From positions 15,004,001-15,068,000 of the forward strand of contig NC_135830.1 in the NCBI RefSeq assembly GCF_964213995.1: a stretch of DNA of 64,000 nt. Reading direction: 5' to 3'. Both the position numbers and the translations under genes were made by a program. Positions 2,762 to 34,217 of this stretch are shown here, piece after piece; positions within the stretch are counted from its first letter, which is position 1, and each line of letters opens with the position of its first letter. Origin of the DNA: Mustelus asterias. Lineage: Eukaryota. The notes beneath the pieces are model-generated. The model searched no databases, was not told where the DNA came from, and saw only the letters and a list, made by a program, of their open reading frames with translations.

Positions 2762-2814
2762 TGCCGAAACCCGGGATTGAACCAGGGACCTTTAGATCTT
2801 CAGTCTCACACTCT
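2762..2814 (-). pseudogene. 5'-truncated tRNA-Phe(GAA) fragment
   Basis: Reverse complement agagtgtgagaCTGAAGAtctaaaggtccctggttcaatcccgggtttcggca matches the 3' two-thirds of vertebrate tRNA-Phe; 5' acceptor strand and A box missing, no CCA. Confidence 0.9.
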
Positions 2815-2859
2815 TAATTGCTTGCACTTAATTGAAACAGGAGGAAGTTTGAATCTGCC

Positions 2860-11475: not shown

Positions 11476-12739
11476 TCAGTTAAATCTCACACAGAACACG
11501 GGTACAGTCTCTCCCGCTGTGAATGCTGCGATGTATTTTCAGGCTGTGTAACTGGTTAAAGCTCTTTCCACACTCAGTGCACTGGAACACTCTCACTCGG
11601 GTGTGTGTATCTCAGTGCATTTCTAGTCACAGTGATGTTTACAATCTTTTGAAGCCAAGAGGCCAAACAAACATTTCTCCTGCTAGATTCAAAGGCCAAT
11701 GATATTCAGGTCTCAAGAAATCGAGTCACTCTGTCAGATCTAGGTGTGATGTTGGAGATTTCTGTCTGATTTCTCCTTGTCTAATATCCTGTAAGTCAAT
11801 TTAGAAAAAAAACATCACAATTCAGAATACGATCGAAATTCAAATCTACATTTCTAGTTTCTATGGAGCATTCATTAAAGACACAGTCATGGAGCATTAA
11901 ACTTGCCCAGCAGGGCCTCCCATATCAGCACACAGGCAGCTGCTTTGTGAGACTGCCCGCAGTACAGACAAGTCAGAGATAAGGGTGTCCTCAGAAGTGG
12001 GATTCATTGTGAAAGCTCAGGGACGGTTGATAAGATGCAGCAATTCTATGATTCTAATGAACATTCTTTCCTCTCTCATTCCCCAAAAGCTGTAAATCTC
12101 CATCCCACACACTCTCCCTCCATTCTCACTCTGCTGTATCTAATATTCACCCTCCCAATTCTCCTGAAGGTGCTGATTGAGGCTGATTGACAGATCCATG
12201 CTCACTGCTTCCTGTCCAGCACAGAAATCATAACAAATAGGAGCTGCAGTCAGCATTCGGCCCATCGAGTCTGCTCAACCATTCATTGAGATTATTGGTT
12301 GATCTACCTCTGCATTATTTTCCCCACACTGCCCCCATATCCATCGATATCTTCAATATCTAGAAACCTATCAATCCCTCTCTTGAAAATTTTTGATGAC
12401 TGAGGCTCTATAGTCCTCTGGGGTAGAGAATCCAAAACATCACCACATCCTTGAGTGAAGAAATCCTTCCTCATCTGAGCTTTCTCTCCATTTTCCAGCC
12501 TGTTCCCAATAATTATTGACTCCCTTGTCATTCAAAAACTGTCTAACTCATCCTTGAATATATTCAATCCCTCCACTGGTCCCTATGGAAGAGAAATCTA
12601 GATACTAACAATTCTCTGAGGGAAGAGATTGTTGGAAATATAAAATATAGCTGCAGTCCAAAATTACACAGCCAGATATAATAAGTGCATTGTATTACAG
12701 AGCTTAAATAATATATCGAATCTGTACCATATAACAACA

Positions 12740-15081: not shown

Positions 15082-15429
15082 TCAATGTCTTTAAGTCAGA
15101 AAGAGAGAGACCTGGGCCAACCTTTCCAGAGTGTGCAGCCTCCCTGGATTCACTTCCTTTCCCTTCAGTTGCTGCAAGTCCCCAATTTCCCCCAGAATGA
15201 GAAAAGAATTGGAAAGGGGGATAAAAGAAAGTGTTTTACTCACAGATGTGGGAGACAGAAGGAAGTTTGAATCTGTCTGTACTCAATCTTCATTCAGAGA
15301 GACCTCTTTTTAGGTCAAACCAAGTAAACAAACTCAAATTAAATCAGGACTAAGTAAAAGGGGCAGCTCCCCAAAAAGGAGGGGGAACAGCCCGAACAGA
15401 AATCAAAATGCAAAGGAAACTTAAAAACA

Positions 15430-18400
15430 TCAAATTAAAATGTGATTATCAGGGTCAATAATGCACCCCAACCCCTGCGGTGCCCAGCGGGCGCGGAAAG
15501 CGTCAACCTCGCCCGTGGACACCGCATGCTCCCTCTCCAGGGACACCTGGCCGCGAACGTAGCCGCGGTAGAGGGGAAGACAGTCAGGATGGACGGCCCC
15601 CTCGATCGCCCGCTGCCTGGACCGGTAAATGGCGCGTTTCGCCAGGCCCAGGAGCAGGTTCACGAGGAGGTCGCCATCCCGACCCTCCCCTCTCCGCACC
15701 GGGTGTCCGTAGATCAGGAGCGTGGGACTGAAGTGTAAACAAAACATCAATAAAAGGTTCTTCAGGAAAACATAAAGGGAGTGCAGCCTAAGACACTCAA
15801 CATAGACATGGTCCACGGACTCCACAAGGCCACAGAAAGGGCAGTCTTCGGAGCCCGTGAACCAGTGAATCCTACGGTTGTGCGGAACTGCTGCATGCAT
15901 CACCCTCCACCCCAGGTCCCCGACGTAATTGGGGGAGATCCCTCCGTAGAGGGACCTCCAGCGGGGACCTCCGCCGCCCGGCGGCAACAAGGCCCGCCAA
16001 GGTGTATCCGGGCGACAGGCGAGGAGGCGGTAGTGGAGGGTGTGCAGCAGCAGCCCGCACAGGAAACGCCTCCGCGCGGTAGAAAAAGGCACGGAGGGCA
16101 TTTCCGCGAGGCGGCTCAGGCTGTGGGGCACCTCACCCAGGGGAGGGGGCTGAGGCTTTGGGCCAATGTGGAATTCCGCCCGAACAGGGGAACGCTCGGG
16201 CGGGATCCCACCGCACGCCTGCGCCGCCTCGAGTTTGCGTGCAGTTTCGGGGCCGAGCACGACCGTCCTAAGGTCTAGGATGGCTTTGGCCGCGCGCCGG
16301 ACGGACGTCCCCGTGCGCTCAGCCAGCACGCGGGGACTCATCCAGCCCGCTCCTCCGCCATCGAGCACGTCCCCGATTCTGGTCACCCCGGCGTCCACAG
16401 CCCCCCTCTCCGCCAGCCACCTGAAGTTATACGGCTGGAGGAGCGGATTCCTGAGCAGCGGCTCTCGCACAAGAGCCGCTACTCCTGACGGGGGAGAGCT
16501 GCGTCGCGAGGCGACCTTGTTCCAGACAGTGAGGAGGTCCTGGTAAAAGACGGGCAACTCCTGCAGGGCGGTCGAAGCACGCCCCAGTTCGATATGCAGG
16601 AGCTGCACGTCATAATTGAGGCCGTGCCACTGGCGGAAGAAATACGTCGCCATGGCACACCACTGTGGAGGGGGCTCAACGTAAAGGTACCTCTGCAGGG
16701 CCTGGAGGCGGAAGGTCGCTATCTGAGTGCGGAGGCACACCAGACTTTGTCCGCCCTCCTCAAGCGGGAGATACAGGACCGCAGCAGGGACCCAGTGCAG
16801 TCGATTGCCCCAGAAGAACCGCACGAGGGTTCTCTGGATATCGGTGACAAAGCCAGGGGGAGGGGTCAAAGGGACCAGCCGGTACCACAGCATGGAGGCG
16901 ACCAGCTGGTTTATGACGCGAGCTCGCGCCCCGTAGGACAGCACTCGGAGCAGTCCTGTCCAGCGACCCAGGCGGGCGGAGACTTTGGCCTCCAGCTCCC
17001 GCCAGTTCGCCGGCCAGGATTCCTCGGCTGGGCAGAGATGGGCCCCCAAGTAGAGGAGGTTGGTCCTGCTCCAGGTGAAAGGCCTGAGCTCCTCCGGAAG
17101 GGGGTCCGTCTCCCAAGGACCGACAAGGAGTCCGGAGCACTTGGCCCAGTTGATCCTGGCGGAGGACGCGGCGGAGTACACCGCCTGGCATTCTCGCATC
17201 CTCCGCAGGTCAGCCGGGTCCGTGAACATGAGGAGCACGTCGTCGGCGTAAGCTGACAGGACCACCCCTACGTCCGGTCCGCGCAGGACCAAACCTGACA
17301 ACCTCCTCCGCAAGAGGCGCAGGAATGGCTCCACGCATACGGAATACAGTTGGCCGGACAAGGGGCAGCCCTGCCGTACTCCTCTCCCGAAGCGAAGGGG
17401 CGCCGTCAGGGACCCGTTAACCTTAATCAGACACTCTGCGGCAGAGTACAGTAATCGGATCCGGGCGACAAAATGCGTCCCGAACCCGAATGCCCGCAGA
17501 GTCCCGAGTAAATACTCGTGCTCCACCCTGTCGAACGCCTTCTCCTGATCTAATGACAAGAAGGCGCCCGACAGACCAGCCCTCTGGGTGTGATGGATTA
17601 GGTCCCGGACCAGGTGGAGATTGTCATGTATGCAACGGCCCGGGACCGTGTAGGACTGGTCAGGGTGGATCAAGTGGTCCAGCACGGATCCAAGGCGTGA
17701 AGCCATAGCCCTGGCAAAGATTTTATAATCCGTGCTGAGGAGGGAGACCGGGCGCCAGTTCTTGAGCAGGTGGAGATCCCCCTTCTTGGGCAGCAGGGCA
17801 ATGACGGCCCTGCGCCACGAAAGGGGCATCTCCCCGGTAGCGACGCTCTCCCCCAGGACCCCCGCGTAGTCGCTCCCCAGGACGTCCCAGAACGCCCTGA
17901 AGAACTCTACTGTCAGCCCGTCCAGCCCAGGGGCCTTGCCCCGGCTGAGGCCATTTAGGGCGCCGGTCAGCTCGGCCATGGTGGTAGGGGCCTCGAGCCT
18001 GCCGACGCCCTCCGGGCCGACCTGCGGCAGGTCCTCCCACAGAAGTCTGCGGGCATCCTCGCTGGACGGATCCGGAGAGAAGAGCGAGGTGTAATACTCC
18101 CGGGCAATGGCCCGGATGCCCTCCGGATCCGAGACGGGGGAACCGTCGTCGGCCAGCAGCGTAAGGAGCTGCTGACGGTTAGCCCGCCCTCTTTCCAGCG
18201 AGTAGAAGAAGGGGGAGCCGCGGTCCAGGTCCACCTGGAACTGGAGCCGCGACCTCACGTACGCGCCGCGAGACCTGGCAAGCTGCAGGTCCCGCAGTGC
18301 GTCCTTCTTCTCCCTGTACTCCGAACGCAGGGCCGGGTCCGCGTCAGGCCGACTGAGACGTGCCTCCAGGTCGAGCACCTCCTTCTCCAACTCCTCGAGC

Positions 18401-19323
18401 CTGGATTTCCGCCTCTTTGTCGACCCCCTCGCGTACCCCTGACAGAAGGTACGGACGTGAGTCTTGCCCACATCCCACCAGAGCCTCAAGGAGGGGAAGC
18501 CTCCCCGCTTCCTTCTCCAGCCGGCCCAGAATCGACGGAACGAGTCCAGGAAGCGCTCGTCCTCCAGCAGCGTGTTGTTAAAGTGCCAGTACGCGGACCC
18601 CCGCCGGATGCGAGACGGCGCAAAGTCCGCCCACACCAGGCTGTGGTCCGTGCTCGACACCGGCCGCATGGAGACCGAGGACACGCCGGACACGTGCGCC
18701 TTCGAAATGTAAAGGCGGTCGAGCCTGGACGCTCCGACTCCAGGCCTCACGAAAGTGAAGGCGCTGGAGCCAGGATGGAGATGTCTCCAGACGTCCACCA
18801 AGTCGTGGGACCCGATCAGGTCCCGCAACTTCACCACCGCCGGAGTGCGCAGCCAGGGGCCGGTGCGGTCCCGTGCCTCGAGGATGCAGTTGAAATCTCC
18901 CCCGAGGATAATGCATTCGCCCCCCGCGATGGTGTCGATGTGAGCGGACACTTTCTCGTAGAAAGTCGTTTGCTGCGGTCCAGCGGTCGGGGCGTAGACA
19001 TTCAGCAAGTGAATGACCACGCCCCCCTCACGGACCGTCAAGTGCAGCAACCGGCCTGGCACCGGCTCCTTGACCCCCAAGATCTCCGGCTTATAATGCG
19101 GGGCCAACAAGATAGCCACCCCGCAAGAAGCGAGCGTGAGGTGGCTCATGTAGACCCCCCCTCGCCACTCCAGGAGCCATTGGGCTTCGTCTCCCGGAAC
19201 GGTGTGGGTTTCCTGCAGGAAACACACCGCATACTTCCCGTCACGGAGGACCGAGAAGTTCTGGAACCTGCGGTGTGGCCCACTGCTGCCGTTGATGTTG
19301 AGGCTGGCTATGGTCACCTTCAT
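15430..19323 (-). CDS. Tx1 ORF2: APE endonuclease, reverse transcriptase and C-terminal Cys/His motif
   Basis: 1297 aa; SLNING, LQETH, GGDFN, RLDR, TDH; GVRQGCPLS, YADD; CPFC..H...C. Confidence 0.97.
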   Translation of the reverse strand: MKVTIASLNINGSSGPHRRFQNFSVLRDGKYAVCFLQETHTVPGDEAQWLLEWRGGVYMSHLTLASCGVAILLAPHYKPEILGVKEPVPGRLLHLTVREGGVVIHLLNVYAPTAGPQQTTFYEKVSAHIDTIAGGECIILGGDFNCILEARDRTGPWLRTPAVVKLRDLIGSHDLVDVWRHLHPGSSAFTFVRPGVGASRLDRLYISKAHVSGVSSVSMRPVSSTDHSLVWADFAPSRIRRGSAYWHFNNTLLEDERFLDSFRRFWAGWRRKRGGFPSLRLWWDVGKTHVRTFCQGYARGSTKRRKSRLEELEKEVLDLEARLSRPDADPALRSEYREKKDALRDLQLARSRGAYVRSRLQFQVDLDRGSPFFYSLERGRANRQQLLTLLADDGSPVSDPEGIRAIAREYYTSLFSPDPSSEDARRLLWEDLPQVGPEGVGRLEAPTTMAELTGALNGLSRGKAPGLDGLTVEFFRAFWDVLGSDYAGVLGESVATGEMPLSWRRAVIALLPKKGDLHLLKNWRPVSLLSTDYKIFARAMASRLGSVLDHLIHPDQSYTVPGRCIHDNLHLVRDLIHHTQRAGLSGAFLSLDQEKAFDRVEHEYLLGTLRAFGFGTHFVARIRLLYSAAECLIKVNGSLTAPLRFGRGVRQGCPLSGQLYSVCVEPFLRLLRRRLSGLVLRGPDVGVVLSAYADDVLLMFTDPADLRRMRECQAVYSAASSARINWAKCSGLLVGPWETDPLPEELRPFTWSRTNLLYLGAHLCPAEESWPANWRELEAKVSARLGRWTGLLRVLSYGARARVINQLVASMLWYRLVPLTPPPGFVTDIQRTLVRFFWGNRLHWVPAAVLYLPLEEGGQSLVCLRTQIATFRLQALQRYLYVEPPPQWCAMATYFFRQWHGLNYDVQLLHIELGRASTALQELPVFYQDLLTVWNKVASRRSSPPSGVAALVREPLLRNPLLQPYNFRWLAERGAVDAGVTRIGDVLDGGGAGWMSPRVLAERTGTSVRRAAKAILDLRTVVLGPETARKLEAAQACGGIPPERSPVRAEFHIGPKPQPPPLGEVPHSLSRLAEMPSVPFSTARRRFLCGLLLHTLHYRLLACRPDTPWRALLPPGGGGPRWRSLYGGISPNYVGDLGWRVMHAAVPHNRRIHWFTGSEDCPFCGLVESVDHVYVECLRLHSLYVFLKNLLLMFCLHFSPTLLIYGHPVRRGEGRDGDLLVNLLLGLAKRAIYRSRQRAIEGAVHPDCLPLYRGYVRGQVSLEREHAVSTGEVDAFRARWAPQGLGCIIDPDNHILI

Positions 19324-19344
19324 GTCAGCAGCTTTGTGCCACCG

Positions 19345-21450
19345 TCACCACTTAACTAGGTGTGTGGGGGGCGCTGGCGCAATTCTCACCAGTCCACCCC
19401 CCACCTTTTCGAGCCTGTGGAGGAACCGCAGTACCCAGCGCCGCTCTATTTTCTCCAGGCCCGCGGAGGCATGCGAGCATGCCTTCACGGACCGGACGAG
19501 CCGCGCCAGGTCCGGCCAGCGGCCGAGGGCTAGCCGGATTATGTCGGAGCGACCGGAATGGCTACGGATAAAGACCCTGAGGTCCTTGGAGGGGATGAGG
19601 GACAACTCGGTGGGGGGCACGAGGGAGTCCCCCGCCTCGCTCTGGGCAGACTCTGAAAGTGTCCCCGTGCCCTCCACCGAGCCGCTGACCTCCTCAGGGC
19701 GGTCGCCCCTCGACTCCGAGTCCCCCGCCGCAGGACGTACGGCGGGCGGCACGGAGCCACCAACTAGCCCTAGCCCCTCCCCGATCCCACCCCCAGGATC
19801 GGTGGAGGAGGGGTTCCCCCCGGGCTCACCTTTCCCGGATTGCGGGCCCCCGTGCGACGGCGGCCCAGCCGCCCCCCCCGCCCCAGACGCTTGGACACCC
19901 CCCAGGTCCGGTGTATCCTTCGGACTGAGGTTGGGGATGTCCAGCGTCCAAGGTCGGGACGGAGAGGACGAGTGGATCGTCTCTTCGCCGCCGCCGCACG
20001 AGGACATGAACATTGGAGTGTCGCCCCAGTCCCCCGACAGACTGAAGAAGAACTCCGGGTTGTAACCGGCCGGGTGGAACGGAACCGTGGGGGCCCCGCT
20101 ACCACCCGGCCCCGGAGACTCCTCGCCGGGGGACTGAGGCAACACATGCTTGGATTTACAGGGTGCCTTGCCCCCTTTTTTCGCGGGACAAGGCACAAAG
20201 ACAGGTGGGGGCACGGCAGGAGATGACTCACAAGGGGGGAGGGGCACGCAGACCTCGAACTCTACGGTGCCCGAGGGGCCCCGCCTCTTTTTGTTAACCT
20301 GCCCTCGGGCAGGCGAGACCCCTCGCCCTCCGCCCCTCTTCGCCTTGCCGCGCCCCCCCTGCTCTCCCGTCACTTCCCCCCGAGGTGGCGGCGTCGCCAG
20401 TTTTGCCGGCTCGGGGTCGCTTACCCCCCCATGCTCGGGCCCATGATCCCGGGCGCCGGACCCAGCACTAGGCCCCGGAGAGCCCACGGGCCCGGCAGAT
20501 GGTGGTGGTGGTGGGGGGGGGGGGGCGCAGGTGGAGACTGAGGCGGTCCCCGAGCCGGCTGCCGGGGTGGTTGGGGTGTTTTCCCTGGGGGCCGGGGTTC
20601 CGGTACCCCCCTTCTTTTTTGTAGGTCCCTTCTGGGCCTTTTGGCCGCGCGGGGGCTCCGCTCCCCCCCCGCCGGCAGCTGAGGTGGCAGCTGCTGCCGG
20701 CGTGGCCTCCCCTCGCGGGGGGGCAGATGGTACTCGCTTGGGGGGAGAGGGGGCTGCGGTGCCAGCTGCGGCCGCCTTGGGTTGGTGGTCGGCGGCCTTG
20801 GAGACGGGGCAGTTTTTCCTCACGTGCCCCGCCTCCTTACAGGCATGGCACCGCACACCGTCCGCGGACCAAAAGACCCGGTACGTGGTCCCCTCGTGGG
20901 GGACATTGAACCCTCCCTCCAGTTCCTCCTCCCGGGCCAGGCGGACAAAAACCTGGCGCCGGAAGGAGTATATGTGGCGGAGGGAGGGGTCCCGAAGGCC
21001 GAGCGGGATCGGCTGCACCCCGGACCTGACCTCCCCCAGTAGATGGAGGTGGGGGAGGAGGAGCTCACTTGGTAGGAAGGGCGGGACGTTCGATATTACT
21101 ATCTTGTGGGCGGTGGCCTCCAATGGGTCCACCGCCAGGAACGTCCCGCCCACCGTGAGCCCCTTTTCCAGGGCGAGGCGAACCGCCCGCTCGGCCTTCA
21201 GGAAGAATACGGCCCGGCCGTACATCTTAGAGGCCGCGACAATGGCTGAGGGGCCGACAACCCCAGCCATTGCCTTAACGCAGGCCTCGATAGACATGTC
21301 GGGGTGGGCGTAGCACTTCACCCCGAGCTGCCGCGTGATTAAAGAGAATGGCGGCAGGGCCTTGGGAGCGGCGGGGGCTCTGGCAGCCGCCACGCCCGCA
21401 TAGGTGGGCCGAGAAGGCCCTGCCACCGGCGACGCTGGTGATGTCGCCAT
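19345..21450 (-). CDS. Tx1 ORF1 (gag-like, CCHC zinc knuckle, Pro/Gly-rich tail)
   Basis: 701 aa containing CHACKEAGHVRKNC; ends 21 nt before the ORF2 ATG. Confidence 0.93.
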   Translation of the reverse strand: MATSPASPVAGPSRPTYAGVAAARAPAAPKALPPFSLITRQLGVKCYAHPDMSIEACVKAMAGVVGPSAIVAASKMYGRAVFFLKAERAVRLALEKGLTVGGTFLAVDPLEATAHKIVISNVPPFLPSELLLPHLHLLGEVRSGVQPIPLGLRDPSLRHIYSFRRQVFVRLAREEELEGGFNVPHEGTTYRVFWSADGVRCHACKEAGHVRKNCPVSKAADHQPKAAAAGTAAPSPPKRVPSAPPRGEATPAAAATSAAGGGGAEPPRGQKAQKGPTKKKGGTGTPAPRENTPTTPAAGSGTASVSTCAPPPPPPPPSAGPVGSPGPSAGSGARDHGPEHGGVSDPEPAKLATPPPRGEVTGEQGGRGKAKRGGGRGVSPARGQVNKKRRGPSGTVEFEVCVPLPPCESSPAVPPPVFVPCPAKKGGKAPCKSKHVLPQSPGEESPGPGGSGAPTVPFHPAGYNPEFFFSLSGDWGDTPMFMSSCGGGEETIHSSSPSRPWTLDIPNLSPKDTPDLGGVQASGAGGAAGPPSHGGPQSGKGEPGGNPSSTDPGGGIGEGLGLVGGSVPPAVRPAAGDSESRGDRPEEVSGSVEGTGTLSESAQSEAGDSLVPPTELSLIPSKDLRVFIRSHSGRSDIIRLALGRWPDLARLVRSVKACSHASAGLEKIERRWVLRFLHRLEKVGGGLVRIAPAPPTHLVKW

Positions 21451-21835
21451 TGTATCAGGGGAAGTGCTACGCCCACCCCGAGACTGCCCAGATGCACGGC
21501 AGGGCGTATGTGGGATGGGGAAGATAAGGCAGGGTGGGGTAGGCGGGGAAGGGTGTAGGTGCTCTCTCCCCGGAGCGAGAGAGGGAGAGAGGAGGTTGGA
21601 GGAGCAGGAGGGAGATGAGGCACAAGGCCGGTGCCCCAGTCAGGAGGGAAAAGGGGAGGGGGTCCCGGTCCCGGGGGCAGCAGTAGTGGGTAGGGGAAAT
21701 AGGAAAGGTCTTCACCCCCCCCACTGCAGATGGAAAAGAGACAGTCCAAACGCCTTCGCCCCCCCTCTCCTCCAGTCACTCCCTGTCCTCTCTTCCTCCC
21801 TCCCCCCGGGGAGAGCGCACCCTCCAGAGGCCGGA

Positions 21836-22225
21836 TGGCAGGCAGTCAGGCAGTCCAGACGGCAGGCAGGCTAGACGGCAAGCAGGCAGGCAGGCAGTCC
21901 AGACGGCAGACAGCCCAGACAGCAGGCAGGCAGGCAGTCCAGACGGCAGGCAGGTAGGTAAGCAGGCCAGACGGCAGGCAGGCAGGTAAGCAGGCCAGAC
22001 GGCAGGCAGGCAGGTAGGCAGGCCAGACGGCAGGCAGGCAGGTAAGCAGGCCAGACGGCAGGCAGGCAGGTAAGCAGGCCAGGCGGCAGGCAGGCAGGTA
22101 AGCAGGCCAGGCGGCAGGCAGGCCAGGCGACAGGCAGGCAGGCCAGGCGGCAGGCCAGGCAACAGGCAGGCAGGCCAGGCGACAGGCAGGCAGGTCAGGC
22201 GACAGGCAGGCCAGGCAACAGGCAG
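21836..22225. repeat. (GGCA)-based minisatellite in the Tx1 5'UTR
   Basis: ~24-28 bp units such as caggccagacggcaggcaggcaggtaag. Confidence 0.9.
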
Positions 22226-22354
22226 CAGCTCACCTCCCTCCCAAAGTTTCCGCCCGGTTCCGACCCGGGGCCCTCCGCTACACGGGCGAACACGAATCCA
22301 CCTCACCCCGGAAACAAAACTGGGTGTTGTCCGAGAGGAGGCACGTCTCAGGCC

Positions 22355-22930
22355 GTCTGAAGCTCAATCTTCATTCAGAGAGAGAGCAGCAGTTAGTTTT
22401 GCTGGGCAGGAATGAGCAGCTGAACAAGCTCATTGTCCACTTCCGCATTCAGACAATGGAGGAGCGTTGATTGGCTGGAGGCTGGAGTCCTTCCGGTCCT
22501 CCAGGATGCCCATTGGCCAGAGCCTGTGAGAGGCAGGACCGGAGCAGAGTCCTTCCGGTCCTCCAGAGTTCCCATTGGTCAATCCCCCGCAGACAGACAA
22601 TGAGGGGCGGAGCCCCACGTGGGGGTGGGCGGGACTTTGCCCTCCAGCCGCGCTGAGCTGTTGTCCAAGGGGAAAGGCTGGAAGACCCGGACAGACAATG
22701 GTCAGTGCGCCGGCTTTGTCCGGGCCCCGCCCCACACCCGCACATGCGCATTTACCCTAAAAACTCGCACATGCGCATTTTTGATTCACTGTCTAGCTCT
22801 GGCCAATGAGAAGAGTTGGAGGACCGGAAGGCCTCAGGTTTCCCAGCCAATCGGAGCGTGGCTTTTTTGCGTGAATGAAGATAGGGCATCAGACAGACTG
22901 AAACTTCCTCCTGTTCCAACATCTGTGAGT
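22355..22930. promoter_or_regulatory. Predicted bidirectional promoter for ZNF3(-)/ZNF4(+) with the ZNF4 exon-1 donor CT|GTGAGT at 22925
   Basis: Inverted paralog of 2860-3285; CCAAT, CCGGAAG, GCACATGCGCA x2, GGGCGG boxes. Confidence 0.7.
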
Positions 22931-23312
22931 AAAACACTTTGTTTTCTCCACCTTTCCATTTCTTTTCTCATTCTGGGGGAAATTGGGGACTTGCAGCAAC
23001 TGAAGGGAAAGGAAGTGAATCCAGGGAGGCTGCAGACTCTGGAAAGGTTGGCCCAGGTCTCTCTCTGTTAAAGACATTGACATCCTTTGCTCCCTCAGCT
23101 TGACACATTGATTTGTCTGGCTCAAAGGTCCCTTTCCTAATGTTCACAATTAAAGGGCTGGTTTCCCCAGGAAATATCTGACATTTAAGGGGACTGTAAA
23201 TTAATATAGATTAGAGATATGTTCAGTATTGTCATATGGCAAGATTAGACATGTATGGTTCTGCAGTAATGTACATTTATTATTATTTCTAATCTGTAAT
23301 ATCGTACGGTCG

Positions 23313-23907
23313 TGTGACATTAGTGTTTCTTTACGAATTTTTTAATCTCAAAATCATGATCCTGCTGTTGTAAATAAACCTTTCAGTTTTTTTTACATTA
23401 TGGCACCGGCTTGTCTACAAAGAGTCCTTTATTTGCTCCTTAAGTGGCTTATATAGAGGTTGTTTGTTTTTACTTTGGGATTTGTGGATAAAAAACTGGT
23501 TGCAGGTCAGGTGACAGAAGTTCTTTCATTTTCACTTCTGAGATGCAGTTTAGTTTTAGAAGGGGCATCACGCTGAAAAGAGACGTCTCTCTCGCTTTCT
23601 CTCCCCTGTTTTATTTGGAAATTCCGTTGGTTATCTGAAAGCAAGGTCTTGCCTTCCTGAAGAAAATATTCTGCTGTTGATGGGTTAGGCATTATCTTGG
23701 TTGTTTTGTTTTGTTTGTAATTGCTAAAAGTTCTTGCTAATTTTCTTACGAAACATGTTAACTATATTCTTAAGTAAACTTTGTGAAAAGGTGGGTCATT
23801 TGAATCATACCTGAAGTGAAACATTTCATGCCAAATTCAAGATGTAAAACGTATGATTCAGGCCGGTTCCATAAAACATTTTGGAGTTTCTAACCTGAGC
23901 CCTAACA
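23313..23907 (+). mobile_element. Putative solo LTR in ZNF4 intron 1
   Basis: TG...AACA termini; absent from paralogous introns; 3' ~150 bp similar to 43555-43715. Confidence 0.5.
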
Positions 23908-24222
23908 TGTAGCTACGGGATATATTTCCAGTAATAGAGTCATTACAGCACAGAAGGAGTCCATTGGACCATTTGGGTCAATGCCGACTTTCTGTCAGTG
24001 TCGAGTGGATCCCATTCTGCAGCACCTCCAATTTCATTTCCAAGTTATTGATCATCTCTGCTTGGACACCCTCACAAGTAGTTCAAGATCATGATCAATT
24101 GTAGCCCCCTGTATCTTAGCCAACTGAAACAATTCTATCCATTAAACATATTTTTAGGCCCGTAATAGAGACATATATCTGTCTGGCCGCCTGCATGGAG
24201 ATTTTCAGCTCTCTGTGTCCAG

Positions 24223-24288
24223 GGCAGGAAGCAGTGAGCATGGATCTGTCAATCAGCCTCAATCAGCACCTTCAGGAGAATTGGGAGG
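24223..24288 (+). other. Predicted 66-nt exon 2 of ZNF4 (ultraconserved module)
   Basis: tgtgtccAG acceptor at 24221-22, GT donor at 24289, next acceptor tttcacAG at 24455-56. Confidence 0.6.
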
Positions 24289-24813
24289 GTGAATATTAGA
24301 TACAGCAGAGTGAGAATGGAGGGAGAGTGTGTGGGATGGAGATTCACAGCTTTTGGGGAATGAGAGAGGAAACAATGTTCCATAGAAACTAGAATTGTCT
24401 GTTCTGAATTTCTAATCTGTGCTGACTGTGATGACTTTTGTAAACTCCTTTCACAGAATATGAGGTGGTGAGGATTGACAGACAGAAATCTCGAACAAAT
24501 GTCATGTCAAATTCTGACAGTCATTCAGTTCATCTGGACGTGAATACCATCGGCCTTTCAATCTAAAAGGAGAAATATTTTTCTGTTCTGTCTGCTTCAG
24601 ACTTTCTTTTTGCATAAATGTGACTGGAAAAATGCCGTGACACACATATACCCGAGTGAGAGTGTTCCAGTGCACTGACTGTGGAAAGAGCTTTAAACAG
24701 TTACACAGCCTGAAAATACATCGCAGCATCCACAGTGGGGAGAGACTGTACCCGTGTTCTGTGTGAGATTGAACTAATAGTTTAACCTGGAGAGTCACAA
24801 GGACACCCGCACC

Positions 24814-25308
24814 ATGGAGAAACTGTGGAAATGTGGGGACTGTGGGAAGGGATTCAATTACCCATCTCTGCTAGAAACTCATCGCCGCAGCCACACTGGG
24901 GAGAGACCATTCACCTGCTCTGATTGTGGGAAAGGGTTTACTCAGTTATCCAGCCTGCAGATACACCAGCGAGTTCACACTGGGGAGAGGCCGTTCACCT
25001 GCTCTCAGTGTGGGGAAGGATTCACTCAGTTATCCCACCTGCAGAGACACCAGCGAGTTCACACTGGGGGGAGACCGTTCACCTGCTCTCAGTGTGGGAA
25101 GGGATTCAGTCAGTTATCCAACCTGCAGACACACCAGCGAGTTCACACTGGGGAGAAACCGTTCACCTGCTCTCAATGTGGGGAGGGATTCACTCGGTCA
25201 TCCCACCTGCGAGTTCACACTGGGGAGAAGCCATTCACCTGCTCTCAGTGTGGGAAGGGTTTCAGAGCTTCATCTGCCCTGCTGAGGCACCAACAAGTTC
25301 ACGAGTGA
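24814..25308 (+). CDS. C2H2 zinc-finger gene ZNF4 (6 fingers, finger 5 has a 4-aa deletion)
   Basis: 164-aa [13 protein letters not shown]...HQQVHE. Confidence 0.9.
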
Positions 25309-25952
25309 TTCCAGGGTTGGATTCTGCTGTTATTGTTTCTGCTCTCAATTACATCCAGGACTGCATTTTGTTCATTCTCAGGTAATGAACCTGGATGAAT
25401 GTATCTAATTTCTATGTGATGACCCTAGTGATTGTAAGTAAGTTCAGAATACCTGGTTACTCAAATTCCTGAGCTGTACACCCCACCTACTGAGATATAG
25501 AAAAATAATGTTCAGCAGAATGGGGAAAGCTCCGTGCTGTCAATGGTTGGATCATTCCTTTTGAGGTTCACATTGCTATGAAACTAGTTTTATAGCAGGA
25601 AGACACAACTCCTCCACACATCACAGACAGGCTGCTGAGTCAGTGACCTTCCTTTCTCAAAATAGGTGGCAAAGCTGTTCCTCCAATTTGCGACTCTGTC
25701 TCTGCAGATGTAGCAACATCGGGAGAGACAGAATCTGTGATTGGAGGAGATGGTCCTCATAGTTTCTGTCTCTCCCATGTACAGGGTGATTTTTCTTCCA
25801 GTAGTTCCACCCATGACAGAATTTCCACGGCCCTTTTGAGGGTGAATTCACCCTCCACAGCCATGTATTTTGAATCCTGGTTCTGAAATATTCTCACTCT
25901 GGGCTTAAGGCTTCCTGGCGTCATACACAGATTTAGATCTTACCACCGAACA

Positions 25953-26568
25953 GTGCCAGAAGACTGGAAGATAGCAAATGTTGTCCCTTTGTTCATGAAG
26001 GGGAGTAGGGACAACCCTGGTAATTATAGACCAGTGAGCCTTACTTCTGTTGTGGGCAAAGTATTGGAAAGGATTATAAGAGATAGGATTTATAATCACC
26101 GAGAAAGGAATAATTTGATTAGGGATAGTCAGCACGGTTTTGTGAAGGGTAGGTCGTGCCTCACAAACCTTATTGAGTTCTTTGAGAAGGTGACCAAAGA
26201 GGTGTTTGAGGGTAAAGCGGTTGATGTGGTGTATATGGATTTCAGCAAAGCATTTGATAATGTTCCCCATGGTAAGCTTTTGCAGAAAATACAGACACAG
26301 GGGATTGAGGGTGATTTAGTGGTTTGGATCAGGAATTGGCTAGCTGTAAGAAAACAAAGGTGGTTGATGGGAAATATTCATTCTGGAGTTCAGTTACTCG
26401 TGGTGTACCGCAAGGATCTGTTTTGGGGCCACTGCTGTTTGTCATTTTTATTAATGACCTGGATGAGGGCGTGGAAGGATGGATTAGTAAATTTGCGGAT
26501 GACACTAAAGTCGGTGGAGTTGTAGACAGTGTGGAGGGAAGTGGCAGGTTACAGAGGGACATAGATAA
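25953..26568 (+). mobile_element. CR1 RT fragment
   Basis: PEDWKIANV..YRPVSLTS..DFSKAFD..QGSVLGP..FADD with a frameshift. Confidence 0.9.
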
Positions 26569-27716
26569 GCCCCTCCATACCAGGCAACATCCTGGTAAAC
26601 CTCCTCTGTACTCTCTCCAAAGCCTCCACGTCCTTCTGGTAGTGCGGCGACCAGAACTGGGCGCAGTATTCCAAATGCGGCCGAACCAACGTTCTATACA
26701 TCTGCAACATCAGACCCCAACTTTTATACTCTATGCCCCGTCCTATAAAGGCAAGCATGCCATATGCCTTCTTCACCACCTTCTCCACCTGTGACGTCAC
26801 CTTCAAGGATCTGGACTTGCACACCCAGGTCCCTCTGCATATCTACACCCTTTATGGTTCTGCCATTTATCGTATAGCTTCTCCTTACATTATTTCTACC
26901 AAAATGCATCACTTCGCATTTATCAGGATTGAACTCCATCTGCCATTTCTTTGCCCAAATTTCCAGCCTATCTATATCCTTCTGTAGCCTCTGACAATGT
27001 TCCTCACTATCTGCAAGTCCTGCCAATTTTGTGTCATCCACAAACTTACTAATCACCCCAGTTACACCTTCTTCCAGATCGTTTATATAAATCACAAACA
27101 GCAGAGGTCCCAATACAGAGCCCTGCGGAACACCACTAGTCACAGGCCTCCAGCCGGAAAAAGACCCTCTGTCTTCTGTGACCAAACCAGTTCTCCACCC
27201 ATCTAGCCGCCTCCCCCTTTATCCCATGAGATCCAACCCTTTTCACCAGCCTACCATGAGGGACTTTGTCAAACGCTTTACTAAAGTCCATATAGACGAC
27301 ATCCACGGCCCTTCCCTCGTCAACCATTCTGGTCACTTCTTCAAAAAACTCCACCAGGTTAGTGAGGCATGACCTCCCTCTCACAAAACCATGCTGACTA
27401 TCGTTAATGAGTTTATTCCTTTCTAAATGCGCATACATCCTATCTCTAAGAATCTTCTCCAACAACTTCCCCACGACGGACGTCAAGCTCACCGGCCTAT
27501 AATTACCCGGGTTATCCTTCCTACCCTTCTTAAATAACGGGACCACATTAGCTATCCTCCAATCCTCTGGGACCTCACCTGCGTCCAGTGACGAGACAAA
27601 CAACCCCAAGTTATCCAGCCTAACATTGGAACTATAATTCCTCATCCCTGGAACCACTTTGATAAATCTCCTCTGCACCTGGTCAAGGAGCCTCACATCC
27701 TCCATAATGTGTGGTG
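26569..27716 (-). mobile_element. CR1 RT fragment in the opposite orientation, plus a short L2/CR1 piece
   Basis: ORFs 27136-27705, 26724-27185 and 26549-26824 carry CR1 RT motifs with frameshifts. Confidence 0.9.
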
Positions 27717-27942
27717 ATCACTGGTTTGCACAGACCCAGGTATTCTGTGTTCCTGTCTGTGATCTCATCACATACTTACAATTGCACAGTGACATCACCC
27801 CTGCTCCCCGGGGATTTGCTCAACTGGGAGATTTTTCTCTGACTCCAGTGCTTCTGATATCTTTCCAGCTGCAGGCTCCAGCAGGAGATTTTAATATTAA
27901 AATCAGTTAAATTCTTTCAGAGGTGAGTGTTTGTGACCATTC

Positions 27943-29526
27943 ACGGGCGCGGGTTCTCGTCATAAACCAGGTGTTCGCCTCCATGCTGTGGTCCCGGCTG
28001 GTCCCTTTGACCCCTCCCCCTGGCTTTGTAGCCAATATCCAGAGAACCCTCCTGCGGTTCTTCTGGGACAATCGACTGCACTGGGTCCCTGCCGTGGTTC
28101 TGCATCTCCCACTTGGGGAGGGCGAACAAGGTCTGGTGTGCCTCCGCACTCAGATAGCGACCTTCCGCCTCCAGGCCCTGCAGAGGTACCTTTACGTTGA
28201 GCCCCCTCCACGATGGTGTGCCATGGCGACGTATTTCTTCCGCCAGTGGCACGGCCTCAATTATGACGTGCAGCTCCTGCATATCGAACTGGGGCGTGCT
28301 TCGACCGCCCTGCAGGAGTTGCCCGTCTTTTACCAGGACCTCCTCACTGTCTGGAACACGGTCGACTCGCGACGCAGCTCTCCCCCGTCAGGAGTAGCGG
28401 CTCTCGTGCGAGAGCCGCTGCTCAGGAATCCGCTCCTCCAGCCGTATAACTTCAGGTGGCTGGCGGAGAGGAGGGCTGTGGACGCCGGGGTGACCAGAAT
28501 CGGGGACGTGCTGAGCGCGCGGGGGTGTCCAAAGCCAAAGCCATCCAAGACCTTAGGACGGTCATGCTCGGCCCCAAAAGTGCACGCGGTCTTGAGGCGG
28601 CACATGCTTGCGGTGGAATCCCGCCCGAGCGTTCCCCTGTTCGGGCGGAATTCCGCATTGGCCCAAAGCCTCAGCCCCCTCCCCTGGGTGAGGTGCCCCA
28701 CAGCCTGAGCCGCCTCGCGGAAATGTCATCCGTGCCTTTTTCTACCGCGCAGAGGCGTTTCCTGTGCGGGCTGCTGCTGCACACCCTCCACTACTGCCTC
28801 CTCGCCTGTCGCCCGGATACACCTTGGCGGGCCTTGTTGCTGCCGGGCAGTGGAGGTCCTCAGTGGAGGTCCCTCTACGGAGGGATCTCCCCCAATTACG
28901 TCGGGGACCTGGGGTGGAGGGTGATGCATGCAGCAGTTCCGCACAACCGTAGGATTCACTGGTTCACGGGCTCCGAAGACTGCCCTTTCTGCGGCCTTGT
29001 GGAGTCCGTGGACCATGTCTATGTTGAGTGTCTTAGGCTGCACTCCCTTTCTGTTTTCCTAAAGAACCTTTTGTTGATGTTTTGTCTGCACTTCAGTCCC
29101 ACGCTCCTGATCTACGGACACCCGGTGCGGAGAGGGGAGGGTCGGGATGGCGACCTCCTCGTGAACCTGCTCCTGGGCCTGGCGAAATGCGCCATTTACC
29201 GGTCCAGGCTGCGGGCGATCGAGGGGGCCGTCCATCCTGACTGTCTTCCCCTCTACCGCGGCTACGTTCGCGGCCAGGTGTCCCTGGAGAGGGAGCATGT
29301 GGTGTCCACGGGCGAGGTTGACGCCTTCCGCGCCCGCTGGGCACCGCAGGGGTTGGGGTGCATTATTGACCCTAATAATCACATTTTAATTTGATGTTTT
29401 TAAGTTTCCTTTGTATTTTGATTTCTGTTCGGGCTGTTCCCCCTCCTTTTTGGGGAGCTGCCCCTTTTACTTTGTCCTGATTTAATCTGAGTTTGTTTAC
29501 TTGGTTTGGTTTGACCTAAAAAGAGG
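27943..29526 (+). mobile_element. 5'-truncated, internally deleted Tx1 copy
   Basis: Homologous to the ORF2 C-terminus and 3'UTR of 15303-16930; same 3' junction gacctaaaaagagg|tctctctgaatgaa. Confidence 0.95.
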
Positions 29527-29870
29527 TCTCTCTGAATGAATATTGAGTACAGACAGACTCAAACTTCCTTCTGTCCCCCACATCTGTGAGTAAAACACAT
29601 TCTTTTATCCCCCTTTCCATTTCTTTTCTCATTCTGGGGGAAATTAGGGACTTGCAGCAACTGAAGGGAAAGGGAGTGAATCCAGGGAGGCTGCAGACTC
29701 TGGAAAGGTTGGCTCAGGTCCCCCTCTCTCTGACTTAAAGACATTGACATCCTTTGCTCCCTCAGCTTGACACATTGATTTGTCTGGCTAAAAGGATGGT
29801 CCCTTTCCGAATGTTCACAATTAAAGGGCTGGTTTCCCCAGGAGAAGGCTGACATTTAAGAGAACAATAA
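29527..29870 (+). other. ZNF5 exon-1/intron-1 conserved module (donor CT|GTGAGT at ~29586)
   Basis: Inverted match to 13380-13512 joined to 15088-15302. Confidence 0.65.
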
Positions 29871-30209
29871 ATTAATATAGGGCAGAGATATGCTTAGTGT
29901 TGTTACATTGTAGATTTGATATATTATTTATGGTTCTGTAACAAAGTACGTTTATTATTATTTCTCATCTTGTAATGTAACACTGAAGCTATGTGATATA
30001 TTTCCACTCATCGAGTCATTACAGCGCAGAAGGAGTCCATTCAGTAACTCGAATCCATGCCGACTCTCTGTAGAAGAATCCAGTCAGTCCCATTCCTTTC
30101 TATATTTCCTTTCCTCCGACAACTTTATTTCCTTCATGTGCCCATCTAATTTCTGAAATATATTAAAGGGGACAGTAAACTAATATCGGACAGAGACGTG
30201 TCTGATGGT

Positions 30210-30600
30210 GTTTTTTATTCATCCTTGGGACACGGGCATTGCAGGCTGGGCCAACATTTATTGCCCATCCCGATTTGCCCTTGAACTGAATGGCTCGCTA
30301 GGCCATTTCAGAGGCTGGTTGAGAGTCAACCACATTGCTGTGGCTCTGGAGTCACATGTAGGCCAGACTGGGTAAGGACGGCAGATTTCCTTCCCTAAAG
30401 CACATTAATGAACCAGATGGGTTTTTCTGGTCAATCGACAATGATTTCATGGTCATCAGTAGATTCTTAATTCTAGATTTTGTTTTTAAATTCAAATTCC
30501 ACCATCTGCCGTGGTGGGATTCGAACCGGGTCCCCCAGAACATCAGCTAAGTTTCTGGATTAATAGTCTAGCGATAATACCGCGAGGCTATCCGCTCCCC
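30210..30600 (-). mobile_element. Second-family tRNA-derived SINE
   Basis: Inverted paralog of 12740-13042 that retains an internal segment missing there. Confidence 0.75.
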
Positions 30601-31893
30601 TGTTGTTATATGGTTCGATATATTATTTATAGCTCTGTAATAAAATACACTTATTATATCTGGCTGTGTAATTTTGGACTGCAGCTATATTATATATTTC
30701 CAACAATCTCTTCCCTCAGAGAATTGTTAATATCTAGATTTCTCTTCCATAGGGACCAGTGGAGGGATTGAATATATTCAAGGATGAGTTGGACAGTTTT
30801 TGAATGACAAGGGAGTCAATAATTATTGGGAACAGGCTGGAAAATGGAGAGAAAGCTCAGATGAGGAAGGATTTCTTCACTCAAGGATGTGGTGATGTTT
30901 TGGATTCTCTACCCCAGAGGACTATAGAGCCTCAGTCATCAAGAATTTTCAAGAGAGGGATTGATAGGTTTCTAGATATTGAAGATATCGATGGATATGG
31001 GGGACAGTGTGGGGAAAATAATGCAGAGGTAGATCAACCAATAATCTCAATGAATGGTTGAGCAGATTCGATGGGCCGAATGCTGACTGCAGCTCCTATT
31101 TGTTCTGATTTCTGTGCTGGACAGGAAGCAGTGAACATGGATCTGTCAATCAGCCTCAATCAGCACCTTCAGGAGAATTGGGAGGGTGAATATTAGATAC
31201 AGCAGAGTGAGAATGGAGGGAGAGTGTGTGGGATGGAGATTCACAGCTTTTGGGGAATGAGAGGGGAAAGAATGTTCATTAGAATCATAGAATTGCTGCA
31301 TCTTATCAACCGTCCCTGAGCTTTCACAATGAATCCCACTTCTGAGGCCACCCTTATCTGTGACTTGTCTGTACTGCTGGCAGTCTCACAAAGCAGCTGC
31401 CTGTGTGCTGATACGGGAGGCCCTGCTGGGCAGGTTTAATGCTCCATGACTGTGTCTTTAATGAATGCTCCATGAACTAGAAATGTAGATTTGAATTTCG
31501 ATCATATTCTGAATTGCGATGTTTTTTCTAAATTGACTTACAGGATATTAGACAAGGAGAAATCAGACAGAAATCTCCAACATCACATCGAGATCTGACA
31601 GAGTGACTCGATTTCTTGGGACCTGAATATCATCGGCCTTTGAATCTAACAGGAGAAATGTTTGTTTGGCCTCTTGGCTTCAAAAGATTGTAAACATCGC
31701 TGTGACGAGAAATGCACTGAGATACACACACCCGAGTGAGAGTGTTCCAGTGCACTGAGTGTGGAAAGAGCTTTAACCAGTTACACAGCCTGAAAGTGCA
31801 TCACAGCATTCACAGTGGGGAGAGACTGTACCCGTGTTCTGTGTGAGATTTAACTGATTGTTTAACCTGGAGAGTCACAAGGACACCCGCACC

Positions 31894-32819
31894 ATGGAGA
31901 AACCGTGGAAATGTGGGGACTGTGGGAAGGGATTCATATCCCCATCTCGGCTGGAAATTCATCAACGCAGTCACACTGGGGAGAGGCCGTTCACCTGCTC
32001 TGTGTGTGGGAAGGGATTCACTCAGTTATCCAGCCTGCAGAAACACAATCTCACTCATACCAATGAGAGACCATTTAAATGCTGTGACTGTGGGAGTGGT
32101 TTTAAAAGCTCTCAGGTACTGATGATGCACCAGCGCATTCACACTGAGGACAGACCGTTCAGCTGCTCTCACTGCACAAAGAAATTTAGAACTTCATCCA
32201 ACCTGCAGATTCACCAGCGAGTTCACACTGGGAGAGACCGTTCACCTGCTCTGTGTGTGGGAAGGGATTCACTCAGTCATCCAGCCTGAAGACACACCGA
32301 GTCATTCATACCAATGAGAGACCCTTTGAATGCTCTGACTGTGGGAATGGCTTCAAAAGCTCTCAGAAACTGATCGTCCACCAGCGCATTCACACTGAGG
32401 AGAGACCGTTCAGCTGCTCTCACTGCACAAAGAGGTTTAGAATATCTTCAGCATTGCTGAACCATCAGCGAGTTCACACCAGGGAGAGACCATTCAGCTG
32501 CTCGGTGTGTGTGAAAGGATTTACTCAGTTCTCCAGCCTCCGCAGACACAATCTCACTCACACCCAGGAGAGACCCTTTAAATGTTCTGACTGTGGGAGT
32601 GGCTTCAAAAGCTCTCATGAACTGATTACCCACCAGTGCATTCACACTGGGGAGTGACCGTTCACCTGCTCTGACTGTGGGAAGGGATTCGCTCAGTCAT
32701 GCAACCTACGGGTACATCAGCGAGTTCACACTGGGCAGAGACTGTTCACCTGCTCTGACTGTGGGAAGGGATTCACTCGGTCAGCAAACTTGGTGAAACA
32801 CCAGCGAGTTCACAAGTGA
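31894..32819 (+). pseudogene. C2H2 zinc-finger ZNF5 (11 fingers; frameshift at ~32230 and in-frame TGA at 32655)
   Basis: ORFs 31858-32289 and 32253-32657; fingers continue to cacaagTGA; inverted paralog of ZNF3. Confidence 0.8.
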
Positions 32820-32902
32820 TTACAGTTCTGGGATTATTCTTGTGAATCTTTCTTGCCCCTTCTCCAGTGCCTTTATTTCCTTAATCTAAATGGAGATCAC
32901 AA

Positions 32903-34100: not shown

Positions 34101-34217
34101 AATCAATCAAGTTAGAAAGATGTTGACATTGCTGCCAGTGTAGTCTGGTGATGAAAATATAGACTGGTTCAGTGAAATGTAGGTAACAGGTAGAATTGAT
34201 ATCTAATGAGGACTTTA

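What the first reader, a model, noticed from the sequence alone, without database searches (positions are those of the whole stretch)
15275..29560. Two diverged Tx1 retrotransposons at the same nucleotide of ZNF exon 1: candidate ZNF-promoter-targeting LINE
Seen: an intact CpG-rich Tx1 (15303-22354) and a truncated one (27943-29526) have the same 3' junction (AAAAAGAGG|TCTCTCTGAATGAA). Both lie in the predicted exon 1 of paralogous ZNF genes, in the host's sense orientation; the full copy starts directly downstream of the bidirectional promoter. The copies differ by clustered, often third-position changes (gaa act gca cgc aaa ctc gag gcg gcg cag gcg tgc ggt ggg vs aaa agt gca cgc ggt ctt gag gcg gca cat gct tgc ggt gga). 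The right copy shows CpG decay and deletions, while the left keeps ~2000 codons without a stop. Known: Tx1-clade elements are often sequence-specific for multicopy targets (Keno in U2 snRNA, Dewa in tRNA arrays, Kibi/Koshi in microsatellites). Inference: independent insertions, or replacement by an active copy, using the multicopy ZNF exon 1 as target and the host promoter for expression. Both downstream ZNF genes are damaged. Alternatives: one insertion copied by the segmental duplication, or targeting of the (TC)n tract rather than the ZNF module.
Basis: partly seen in the sequence, partly recalled or inferred. Interest (0 to 1): 0.85.

Follow-up and report, generated by a model that had tools for sequence, protein, structure and literature searches.

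The report
LINEs homing into zinc-finger first exons
A young jumping-gene family and its older sister have inserted again and again at two fixed spots, about 50 bases apart, in the predicted first exon of a large family of zinc-finger genes, where they likely borrow the host gene's promoter, a kind of target that the literature searches did not find described.

Summary
Confirmed and extended. The left copy is an intact Tx1-clade LINE (ORF2 EN-RT 55% identical to Xenopus Tx1L). Genome-wide, 118 of its 3' ends abut the ZNF exon-1 target or a copy of it, against 230 exact termini counted with a longer pattern. All 53 distinct 5' ends seen lie behind a ZNF promoter or behind another copy. Targeting is relaxed: 37 dispersed copies sit at bare TCT, and (TC)n tracts are not the target. 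Occupied sites are scattered over the exon tree (7-15 changes); elements differ 0.8%, flanks 18%. An older sister family ends at the splice donor about 50 bp downstream (349 junctions), and 12 of 24 fixed ORF2 differences fall in the endonuclease. The young family's 5' end is a captured exon 1 lacking its splice donor, plus a tRNA-Val-like head, which points to co-transcription from the host promoter (no RNA data). The window's copy is a recombinant, and flank swapping (real or assembly) inflates junction counts. The scan held no look-alike sequence; it noted Tx1 families with other targets in other genomes.

The parts
15303..22354 (-). Full-length family-A Tx1 element (body); mosaic: its 3' 1758 bp are identical to the copy on C90 (L101), its 5' part is not
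22355..22383 (-). 5' copy of the target (TCTCTCTGAATGAAGATTGAGCTTCAGAC): about 14-nt TSD plus exon-1-derived leader carried by the element
22246..22315 (-). Degenerate tRNA-Val-like head; aligns continuously with the tRNA-Val(GAC) head of family B
21830..22225 (-). 5' UTR tandem repeat (GCCT-rich), variable in length among copies
19345..21450 (-). ORF1, 701 aa, CX2CX4HX4C knuckle
15430..19323 (-). ORF2, 1297 aa, APE endonuclease plus reverse transcriptase
15244..15302 (-). 3' target and remainder of ZNF exon 1, up to the predicted splice donor at 15243
10120..11788 (-). Predicted exon 2 of the left ZNF gene; finger ORF 10120-11475 is open, the usual start codon is lost
22384..22871 (.). Predicted bidirectional ZNF promoter module (CCAAT boxes, GCGCATGCGC, CCGGAAG)
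22872..22924 (+). Unoccupied exon 1 of the opposite-arm ZNF gene (donor at 22925); its finger exon lies at about 24457-25308
27945..29526 (+). 5'-truncated Tx1 copy at the same nucleotide; older lineage, intermediate between A and B; no TSD or promoter left upstream
29527..29585 (+). Target and remainder of exon 1 of the right ZNF gene; its frameshifted finger exon lies at about 31450-32814
2701..2830 (-). Short site-B insert ending AAAGAGG before CCAACATCTGTGAG in another exon 1 (its tRNA-Phe likeness is recalled, not called by a tool)
22333..39749 (.). 17.4-kb block more than 99.9% identical to C71:11524000-11541396, where the target is empty; one end lies at the element's 5' junction

Best explanation
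A young Tx1-clade LINE family (A) and an older sister family (B) have inserted repeatedly, in the host's sense, at two fixed sites in the predicted non-coding first exon of a multicopy C2H2 zinc-finger gene family, and they are likely transcribed from the host gene's promoter. SHOWN: A inserts before TCT(CTC)TGAATGAAGATTGAG with a TSD of about 14-15 bp, and B before CCAACATCTGTGAG, across the donor. Off target, A takes bare TCT and B-like copies take VCA. Full-length A 5' ends occur only behind a ZNF promoter or behind another copy. A's first ~135 nt are a diverged exon 1 ending at site B, without the donor, followed by a tRNA-Val-like head. INFERRED: (1) ancestor B sat at the donor and was read from the ZNF promoter, so exon 1 became its 5' leader, and loss of the donor kept the element from being spliced out; (2) endonuclease changes moved the nick ~50 bp upstream and gave family A; (3) the leader anneals to the target overhang and lets full-length cDNA join precisely, which is why full-length copies are confined to targets while dispersed copies are truncated; (4) the leader is itself a target, so new copies enter in front of old ones, take the promoter position and build head-to-tail arrays; (5) what draws both families to this exon beyond the 3-nt nick motif is most likely a longer-range recognition or tethering at the ZNF promoter/exon, helped by pairing of the nicked primer with read-through target RNA. 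The insertion would separate the promoter from the finger ORF and probably silences that ZNF copy.
For: Counts: 230 exact 22-nt termini; 62 strict and 118 relaxed target junctions, 15 of them one satellite on C89, controls 0; 194 strict target sites, about 25 occupied by A. Of the 52 termini on contigs C1-C69, 1 is at a target-like sequence. Enrichment over TCT sites is at least 3x10^4 assuming only 10 events and 1000 targets, and about 500 even if the nick motif carried 12 bits (rough). Independence: 25 occupied and 29 empty exons are intermixed, 15 changes, at least 7 forced by starred branches; among 30 copies the element differs 0.8% and the flank 17.6% at the median; truncated on-target copies of 153, 180 and 331 bp have their own TSDs; four TC registers at the junction. 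Activity: 33 of 44 long copies keep an ORF2 of 1302 codons or more; 21 of 37 dispersed copies have exact TSDs, 20 of them 14-16 bp. Host context: 9 of 13 chosen occupied sites have a same-sense C2H2 array within 10 kb; the exon-1 ATG-to-donor length of 48-53 nt is not frame-conserved and ORFs start in exon 2. Promoter use: 53 of 53 distinct 5' ends are promoter (26) or tandem (27); leader homology; donor absent in 25 of 25 head contexts, 4 of them B; no AATAAA or poly(A) at the 3' end, and one poly(A)-tailed, TSD-flanked retrocopy on C3 (L151) spans 3' end, leader and next head, showing read-through. Sister family: 349 junctions, TSD-like repeat in 7 of 30, 12 of 24 near-fixed ORF2 differences in the EN (18% of length, p=4e-4), one in the hairpin loop.
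Against: No RNA or raw-read evidence was obtained, so exon 1, the TSS and read-through from the promoter are predictions. Specificity is relaxed: 37 distinct dispersed A copies were seen, and their flanks match the target no better than random TCT sites beyond base 3 (P=0.45), so the long-range determinant is unexplained. The hairpin loop is 8 residues against 11 in Tx1L. Junction counts overstate events: 18 of 60 strict junctions are tandem, 13 of 60 share one truncated 1112-bp copy with the same upstream block, and many full-length copies have 5' and 3' flanks from different paralogues. Gene conversion could lower element divergence. 4 of 13 occupied sites showed no same-sense finger exon within 10 kb. 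The 5'-end search pattern contained part of the leader, so 5' ends without it could not appear. Only 10 B copies were read at length and all are decayed.
Confidence: 0.78

Rival explanations
1. A few chance insertions at a TCT site in exon 1 were multiplied by segmental duplication, ectopic recombination and gene conversion in the ZNF clusters (the 'arm-in-arm' model), or by haplotig redundancy in the assembly, with no targeting.
For: Recombination is evident: the window's copy is a mosaic, a 17.4-kb near-identical block ends at the junction, 13 loci share one truncated copy, flanks are discordant. The process is described for ERVs in KZFP clusters (PMC13709654, section 3.3).
Against: Truncated on-target copies have different lengths and their own TSDs. 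Occupied sites have empty sisters at 97-99.6% flank identity. At least 7 changes on the flank tree. A second family hits a second fixed nucleotide in the same exon 349 times.
Confidence: 0.1
2. Targeting is real, but the element is transcribed from its own internal promoter (the tRNA-like head or the CpG-rich 5' UTR), and the leader is only a relic.
For: Family B has a recognisable tRNA-Val head. The element is CpG-rich. Tandem downstream copies lie 7 kb or more from the promoter.
Against: Full-length copies begin 60-75 nt upstream of the tRNA-like part. A TTTT run precedes the head and two more follow in the UTR. The head in A is too degenerate for Rfam or ARAGORN. The donor is lost in 25 of 25 heads.
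Confidence: 0.15
3. A Kibi-like element that targets (TC)n microsatellites and meets the short TC tract of exon 1 incidentally.
For: A junctions fall in a (TC)1-4 tract in four registers. Off-target context is pyrimidine-rich. Kibi targets (TC)n (PMC4494074).
Against: Only 4 of 47 non-strict flanks have (TC)4 or more. The RT groups, with weak support (80/70), with Tx1L, turtle, sturgeon and stingray proteins. Family B hits the same exon at a non-TC site.
Confidence: 0.03
4. The target module is the remnant of a DNA transposon, as for Tx1L and the crocodilian Tx1 families, rather than a host gene promoter and exon.
For: The closest named relative targets a non-autonomous DNA transposon (PMC4494074). 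The module is quasi-palindromic. Some arms run into 5S-derived or other sequence instead of a donor.
Against: In L295 the inverted homology runs on through the intron and finger exons, as in a head-to-head gene pair, not a terminal repeat. Most occupied sites tested have a same-sense finger exon downstream.
Confidence: 0.07

Closest known systems
Tx1L of Xenopus laevis (type member of the Tx1 clade; P14381)
   Same: Two ORFs, APE plus RT, 55% identity over EN-RT, 62% in RT; inserts at a fixed site in a multicopy target (PMC4494074 and PMC1950540 passages).
   Different: Tx1L targets the DNA transposon Tx1D and its EN is called highly specific. Here the target is a host protein-coding gene family's first exon, specificity is relaxed and the hairpin loop is 3 residues shorter.
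Keno (U2 snRNA), Kibi and Koshi ((TC)n, (TTC)n), crocodilian Tx1-Mar and Tx1-9_AMi (DNA transposons); Dewa (tRNA arrays) and Mutsu (5S) recalled
   Same: Tx1-clade target preference for repeated sequence, including 'preferential' rather than strict insertion (PMC4494074).
   Different: Listed targets are RNA genes, microsatellites, satellites or transposons. None is a protein-coding gene's exon in the passages read.
R1/R2 in 28S rDNA and the spliced-leader elements SLACS/CRE/NeSL (recalled; R1Bm target)
   Same: Works like them: sense insertion at a fixed site of a multicopy transcription unit, probable co-transcription, target homology at the 5' junction, tandem arrays (these features of R1/R2 are recalled).
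   Different: Different clade; the host is a diverging Pol II protein-coding family, not a homogenised RNA-gene array; two sister lineages split one exon.
ERV enrichment in KRAB-ZFP clusters, 'arm-in-arm' model (PMC13709654)
   Same: Retroelements accumulate in ZNF clusters and likely seed non-allelic recombination.
   Different: There the enrichment is regional. Here it is nucleotide-exact and repeated in exon 1.

Membership tests
Tx1 clade non-LTR retrotransposon | ORF2 with N-terminal APE and RT; separate ORF1 with CCHC knuckle; no LTRs | tested here: met
   Pfam PF03372 and PF00078; ORF1 701 aa with CX2CX4HX4C
Tx1 clade non-LTR retrotransposon | RT groups with Tx1L rather than with CR1/L2 or L1 | tested here: met
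   RT 62% to Tx1L against 27% to the window's CR1-like ORFs; inside the 100/100 ingroup; far weaker hit to human L1 ORF2. L1 itself was not in the tree
Tx1 clade non-LTR retrotransposon | TPRT hallmarks: fixed 3' end, 5' truncations, TSDs | tested here: met
Target-specific Tx1 families | Repeated independent insertion at one nucleotide of a multicopy target | tested here: met
   relaxed, with 37 dispersed A copies
Target-specific Tx1 families | Endonuclease nicks the target selectively in vitro | not testable with these tools
   only indirect: EN-biased A/B differences
Kibi / Koshi | Insertion into (TC)n or (TTC)n microsatellites | tested here: not met
   4 of 47 non-strict flanks with (TC)4 or more
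Keno / Dewa / Mutsu | Target is an snRNA gene, a tRNA array or a 5S gene | tested here: not met
   No Rfam family at the target: the window gives only a 5S match at 3310-3418, 0 matches in 20 site-B loci; the tRNA-Val is part of the element's head
R1/R2-like co-transcribed elements | Element RNA derives from the host transcription unit | tested here: inconclusive
   indirect support; no RNA data
A named Repbase family from cartilaginous fish | Identity to a deposited consensus with a recorded target | not testable with these tools
   Repbase is not held; paper searches found no such description

The most novel reading that the evidence does not exclude
A LINE lineage has specialised on the host's own zinc-finger repressor genes: it takes their germline or early-embryo promoter, disables the repressor it lands in, has split one exon between two endonuclease specificities, and as a 7-kb near-identical repeat at a fixed point between promoter and finger array it acts as a crossover hub that reassorts promoters among ZNF genes and drives cluster turnover.
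Probability: 0.3. Interest if true: 0.92.

Novelty: new variant of a known kind. Interest (0 to 1): 0.8.

Why it matters
Site-specific LINEs are known from RNA-gene arrays, microsatellites, telomeric repeats and other transposons. A protein-coding multigene family as the target did not turn up in eight paper searches (Repbase and most subscription papers are not held). The target family belongs to the class of genes implicated in transposon silencing (PMC10547256; untested for this host), which turns the ZNF-TE arms race around. The A/B pair, about 6% apart with a 50-bp target shift and half of its fixed changes in the endonuclease, is a natural experiment on how APE specificity changes. The leader gives a testable rule for why full-length integration is confined to targets.

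Tried and rejected
Two-copy dN/dS and codon-position test: uninformative. The 21-bp repeat on both sides of the left copy read as a simple TSD: rejected, because true TSDs are about 14-15 bp and 5' copies carry variant cores unlike their own 3' flank. The recurrent 1112-bp copy read as a non-autonomous derivative: rejected, its upstream 6.6 kb is non-element sequence shared among loci. Extended target likeness in off-target flanks: none (P=0.45). CpG-island or promoter bias of off-target sites: suggested against window tiles (15 of 37 against 37 of 213) but absent against 216 background tiles of chromosomal loci (p=0.63). Coding exon 1: rejected, length not frame-conserved. TIR element as target: not supported. 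No RNA runs or raw reads were examined, so expression and assembly correctness stay open. The primary Tx1L endonuclease paper was not held, so its target was not compared base by base.
Full report
OBSERVATION. The window lies at G000:C71:15004001-15068000 in a 3.68-Gb genome, inside a cluster of C2H2 zinc-finger genes. The left element (minus strand, 15303-22354) has an open 701-aa ORF1 with a CCHC knuckle and an open 1297-aa APE-RT ORF2. ORF2 is 55% identical over EN-RT to Xenopus Tx1L. The right copy (27945-29526) ends at the same junction. But 26 of the 68 differences are majority states of a sister family, so the two copies come from different master lineages, or one was converted.

CENSUS OF FAMILY A. 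The last 22 bases occur 230 times. Junctions with the target number 62 by a strict and 118 by a relaxed pattern, 15 of them one 132-bp satellite on C89; reversed controls gave 0. The patterns have different prefixes, so 'about half' is approximate. 27 of the 230 have a VCA flank and belong to sister lineages. I fetched 60 of the 62 strict junctions: 42 continue into exon 1 or its derivatives and 18 into the 5' end of another copy. The strict target occurs 194 times; 24 of the 60 fetched junctions match it. Of the 52 termini on C1-C69, one is target-like. The 37 distinct dispersed A copies examined begin TCT(C/G) with a pyrimidine-rich upstream side; 21 have exact TSDs, 20 of them 14-16 bp, and they match the target no further (P=0.45). 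I dropped 10 of the 47 rows's 'off' class before this count: nine were target variants or a repeat of one, and one was a duplicate locus. Only 4 of the 47 have (TC)4 or more. A rough enrichment is 3x10^4 over TCT sites on conservative inputs.

INDEPENDENCE. A tree of 215 nt of 3' flank, for 25 occupied and 29 empty sites with a canonical exon and intron (of 44 and 70 held), needs 15 changes, at least 7 on starred branches; 40-52 of 500 shuffles were as low. Among 30 copies (435 pairs) the median divergence is 0.8% in the element's last 1.1 kb and 17.6% in the flank, uncorrelated. Several occupied flanks have empty sisters at 97-99.6%. Short on-target copies of 153, 180 and 331 bp carry their own TSDs. 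33 of 44 long copies keep ORF2 open. Against this: 13 of 60 junctions share one 1112-bp truncated copy and its upstream block, and many full-length copies join a promoter of one paralogue to the exon of another. The window's own copy is such a case. It is identical to the C90 copy over its last 1758 bp only, its downstream 9.8 kb are 99.5% like C90, and its upstream 17.4 kb are more than 99.9% like C71:11.52-11.54 Mb, where the target is empty. Recent non-allelic recombination or assembly chimerism could both give this; no reads were examined.

THE TARGET IS A ZNF FIRST EXON (predicted). 9 of 13 chosen occupied sites have a same-sense finger array within 10 kb. In 70 A-empty sites, 39 run to a CT|GTGAGT-type donor, 14 carry a site-B insert, and 17 run into other sequence. 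The ATG-to-donor length varies from 48 to 53 nt and finger ORFs start in exon 2, so exon 1 is non-coding. GCGCATGCGC-type and CCGGAAG motifs lie upstream in 32 and 34 of 70 and in 0 control windows. A head-to-head pair (L295) is inverted-homologous through the finger exons.

THE LEADER AND THE PROMOTER. 111 5' ends were found. All 30 fetched, and all 53 distinct ones in my loci, lie behind a ZNF promoter (26) or behind another copy's 3' end (27); the pattern included part of the leader. The 5' copy of the target often has cores (GAGTGTAGA, GAATGAGAA, GAGTGAGAA) that differ from the same copy's 3' flank and track the element subtype, so the element carries it. A's first ~135 nt align without a break to exon 1 plus the head of family B. 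That head is tRNA-Val(GAC) by Rfam and ARAGORN in B and degenerate in A. The splice donor is missing in 25 of 25 head contexts, as needed if the RNA starts in the host promoter. The 3' UTR has no AATAAA and no poly(A). One TSD-flanked, poly(A)-tailed retrocopy on C3 spans a 3' end, the leader and the next head (L151), so transcripts can read through the 3' end. None of this replaces RNA data.

FAMILY B. The junction AAAGAGG|(C/A)CAACATCTGTGAG occurs 349 times. Of 30 loci read, 14 had coding Tx1 sequence 88-95% like A in the 1.5 kb upstream; most others were short tails, and 7 showed the 14-bp TSD across the donor. Ten longer copies are decayed, 6.5% apart from each other and 6.1% from A, whose copies are 0.7% apart. 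Of 24 near-fixed ORF2 differences, 12 lie in the EN (p=4e-4), one at the first residue of the hairpin loop that PMC1950540 implicates in target choice (passages). A's leader ends at site B, so A most likely arose from a B-type copy.

MECHANISM. Shown: two fixed sites, sense orientation, TSDs, a carried leader, arrays, an EN-biased divergence. Inferred: host-promoter co-transcription, homology-assisted 5' joining, insertion in front of older copies, EN-driven shift of the nick, silencing of the occupied gene. Unexplained: what brings both families to this exon when the nick motif is only about 3 nt and the loop is short. Off-target sites show no CpG bias.

COMPARISON. It is a Tx1-clade member and works like R1/R2 or the spliced-leader elements (their features are recalled). 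It is not a Kibi, Keno, Dewa or Mutsu by target. Papers seen: PMC4494074, passages and section 15; PMC1950540, passages; PMC10547256, passages; PMC13709654, abstract and section 3.3; all others as search listings only. Kojima and Fujiwara 2004 and Christensen 2000 were not read. No supplements were read; those of PMC4494074 list further Tx1 targets and may bear on novelty. Searches found no description of a LINE targeting a ZNF exon; Repbase could not be checked. The scan's own index had no look-alike by sequence or in this genome and three notes on LINEs that target other elements in other genomes.

VERDICT. Real, recent and nucleotide-exact but relaxed targeting of a protein-coding gene family's first exon by two sister Tx1 lineages. 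New variant of a known kind, interest 0.8.

Noticed in passing
window 2701-2830 (-); L214, L227, L123, L134, L200, L338: Short site-B inserts made of a tRNA-derived part plus the AAAGAGG tail: tRNA-Arg(ACG) called by ARAGORN in L214 and L227; Phe-like in the window and Gly-like in L338 by recall only. Possibly template switches or SINE-like passengers of family B.
   Followed up: partly
window 3256-3418 (+); L100, L108, L120, L132, L220, L228: One class of promoter arm runs from the exon-1 motif into a 5S rRNA-derived copy (Rfam RF00001) instead of a splice donor; family A also inserts in these arms.
   Followed up: partly
L151 (G000:C3:156439268): Poly(A)-tailed retrocopy of an RNA spanning a tandem junction and ending about 12 nt after the tRNA-like head; hints at processing near the head.
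   Followed up: partly
L264 (G000:C89:2431500-2433800): Satellite of at least 15 units of 132 bp, each the last 105 bp of the element plus 27 bp of target.
   Followed up: no
L199, near its 3' end; L243 and L244: A copy 95.5% like A inserted before ACAGACTC in exon 1, between sites A and B, and dispersed copies about 97% like A with ACA flanks: possibly a third sub-lineage and site.
   Followed up: no
L262 (G000:C88:440658): Junction with an inverted piece of the target directly after the element's 3' end.
   Followed up: no
window 35574-39451 (+): CR1/L2-type LINE with a GDSL-lipase-like ORF1 (PF13472) and an open 1005-codon EN-RT frame; its end bounds the 17.4-kb duplicated block.
   Followed up: no
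window 13512-15082: LINE fragment (RT, 489-codon frame) in the left ZNF intron that is absent from the otherwise 99.5% identical C90 locus.
   Followed up: no
P0029 (Caretta caretta): A turtle gene model fuses a Tx1-type RT with KRAB (PF01352, name recalled) and C2H2 domains; may be a mis-prediction across a Tx1 copy inside a KRAB-ZNF gene.
   Followed up: no
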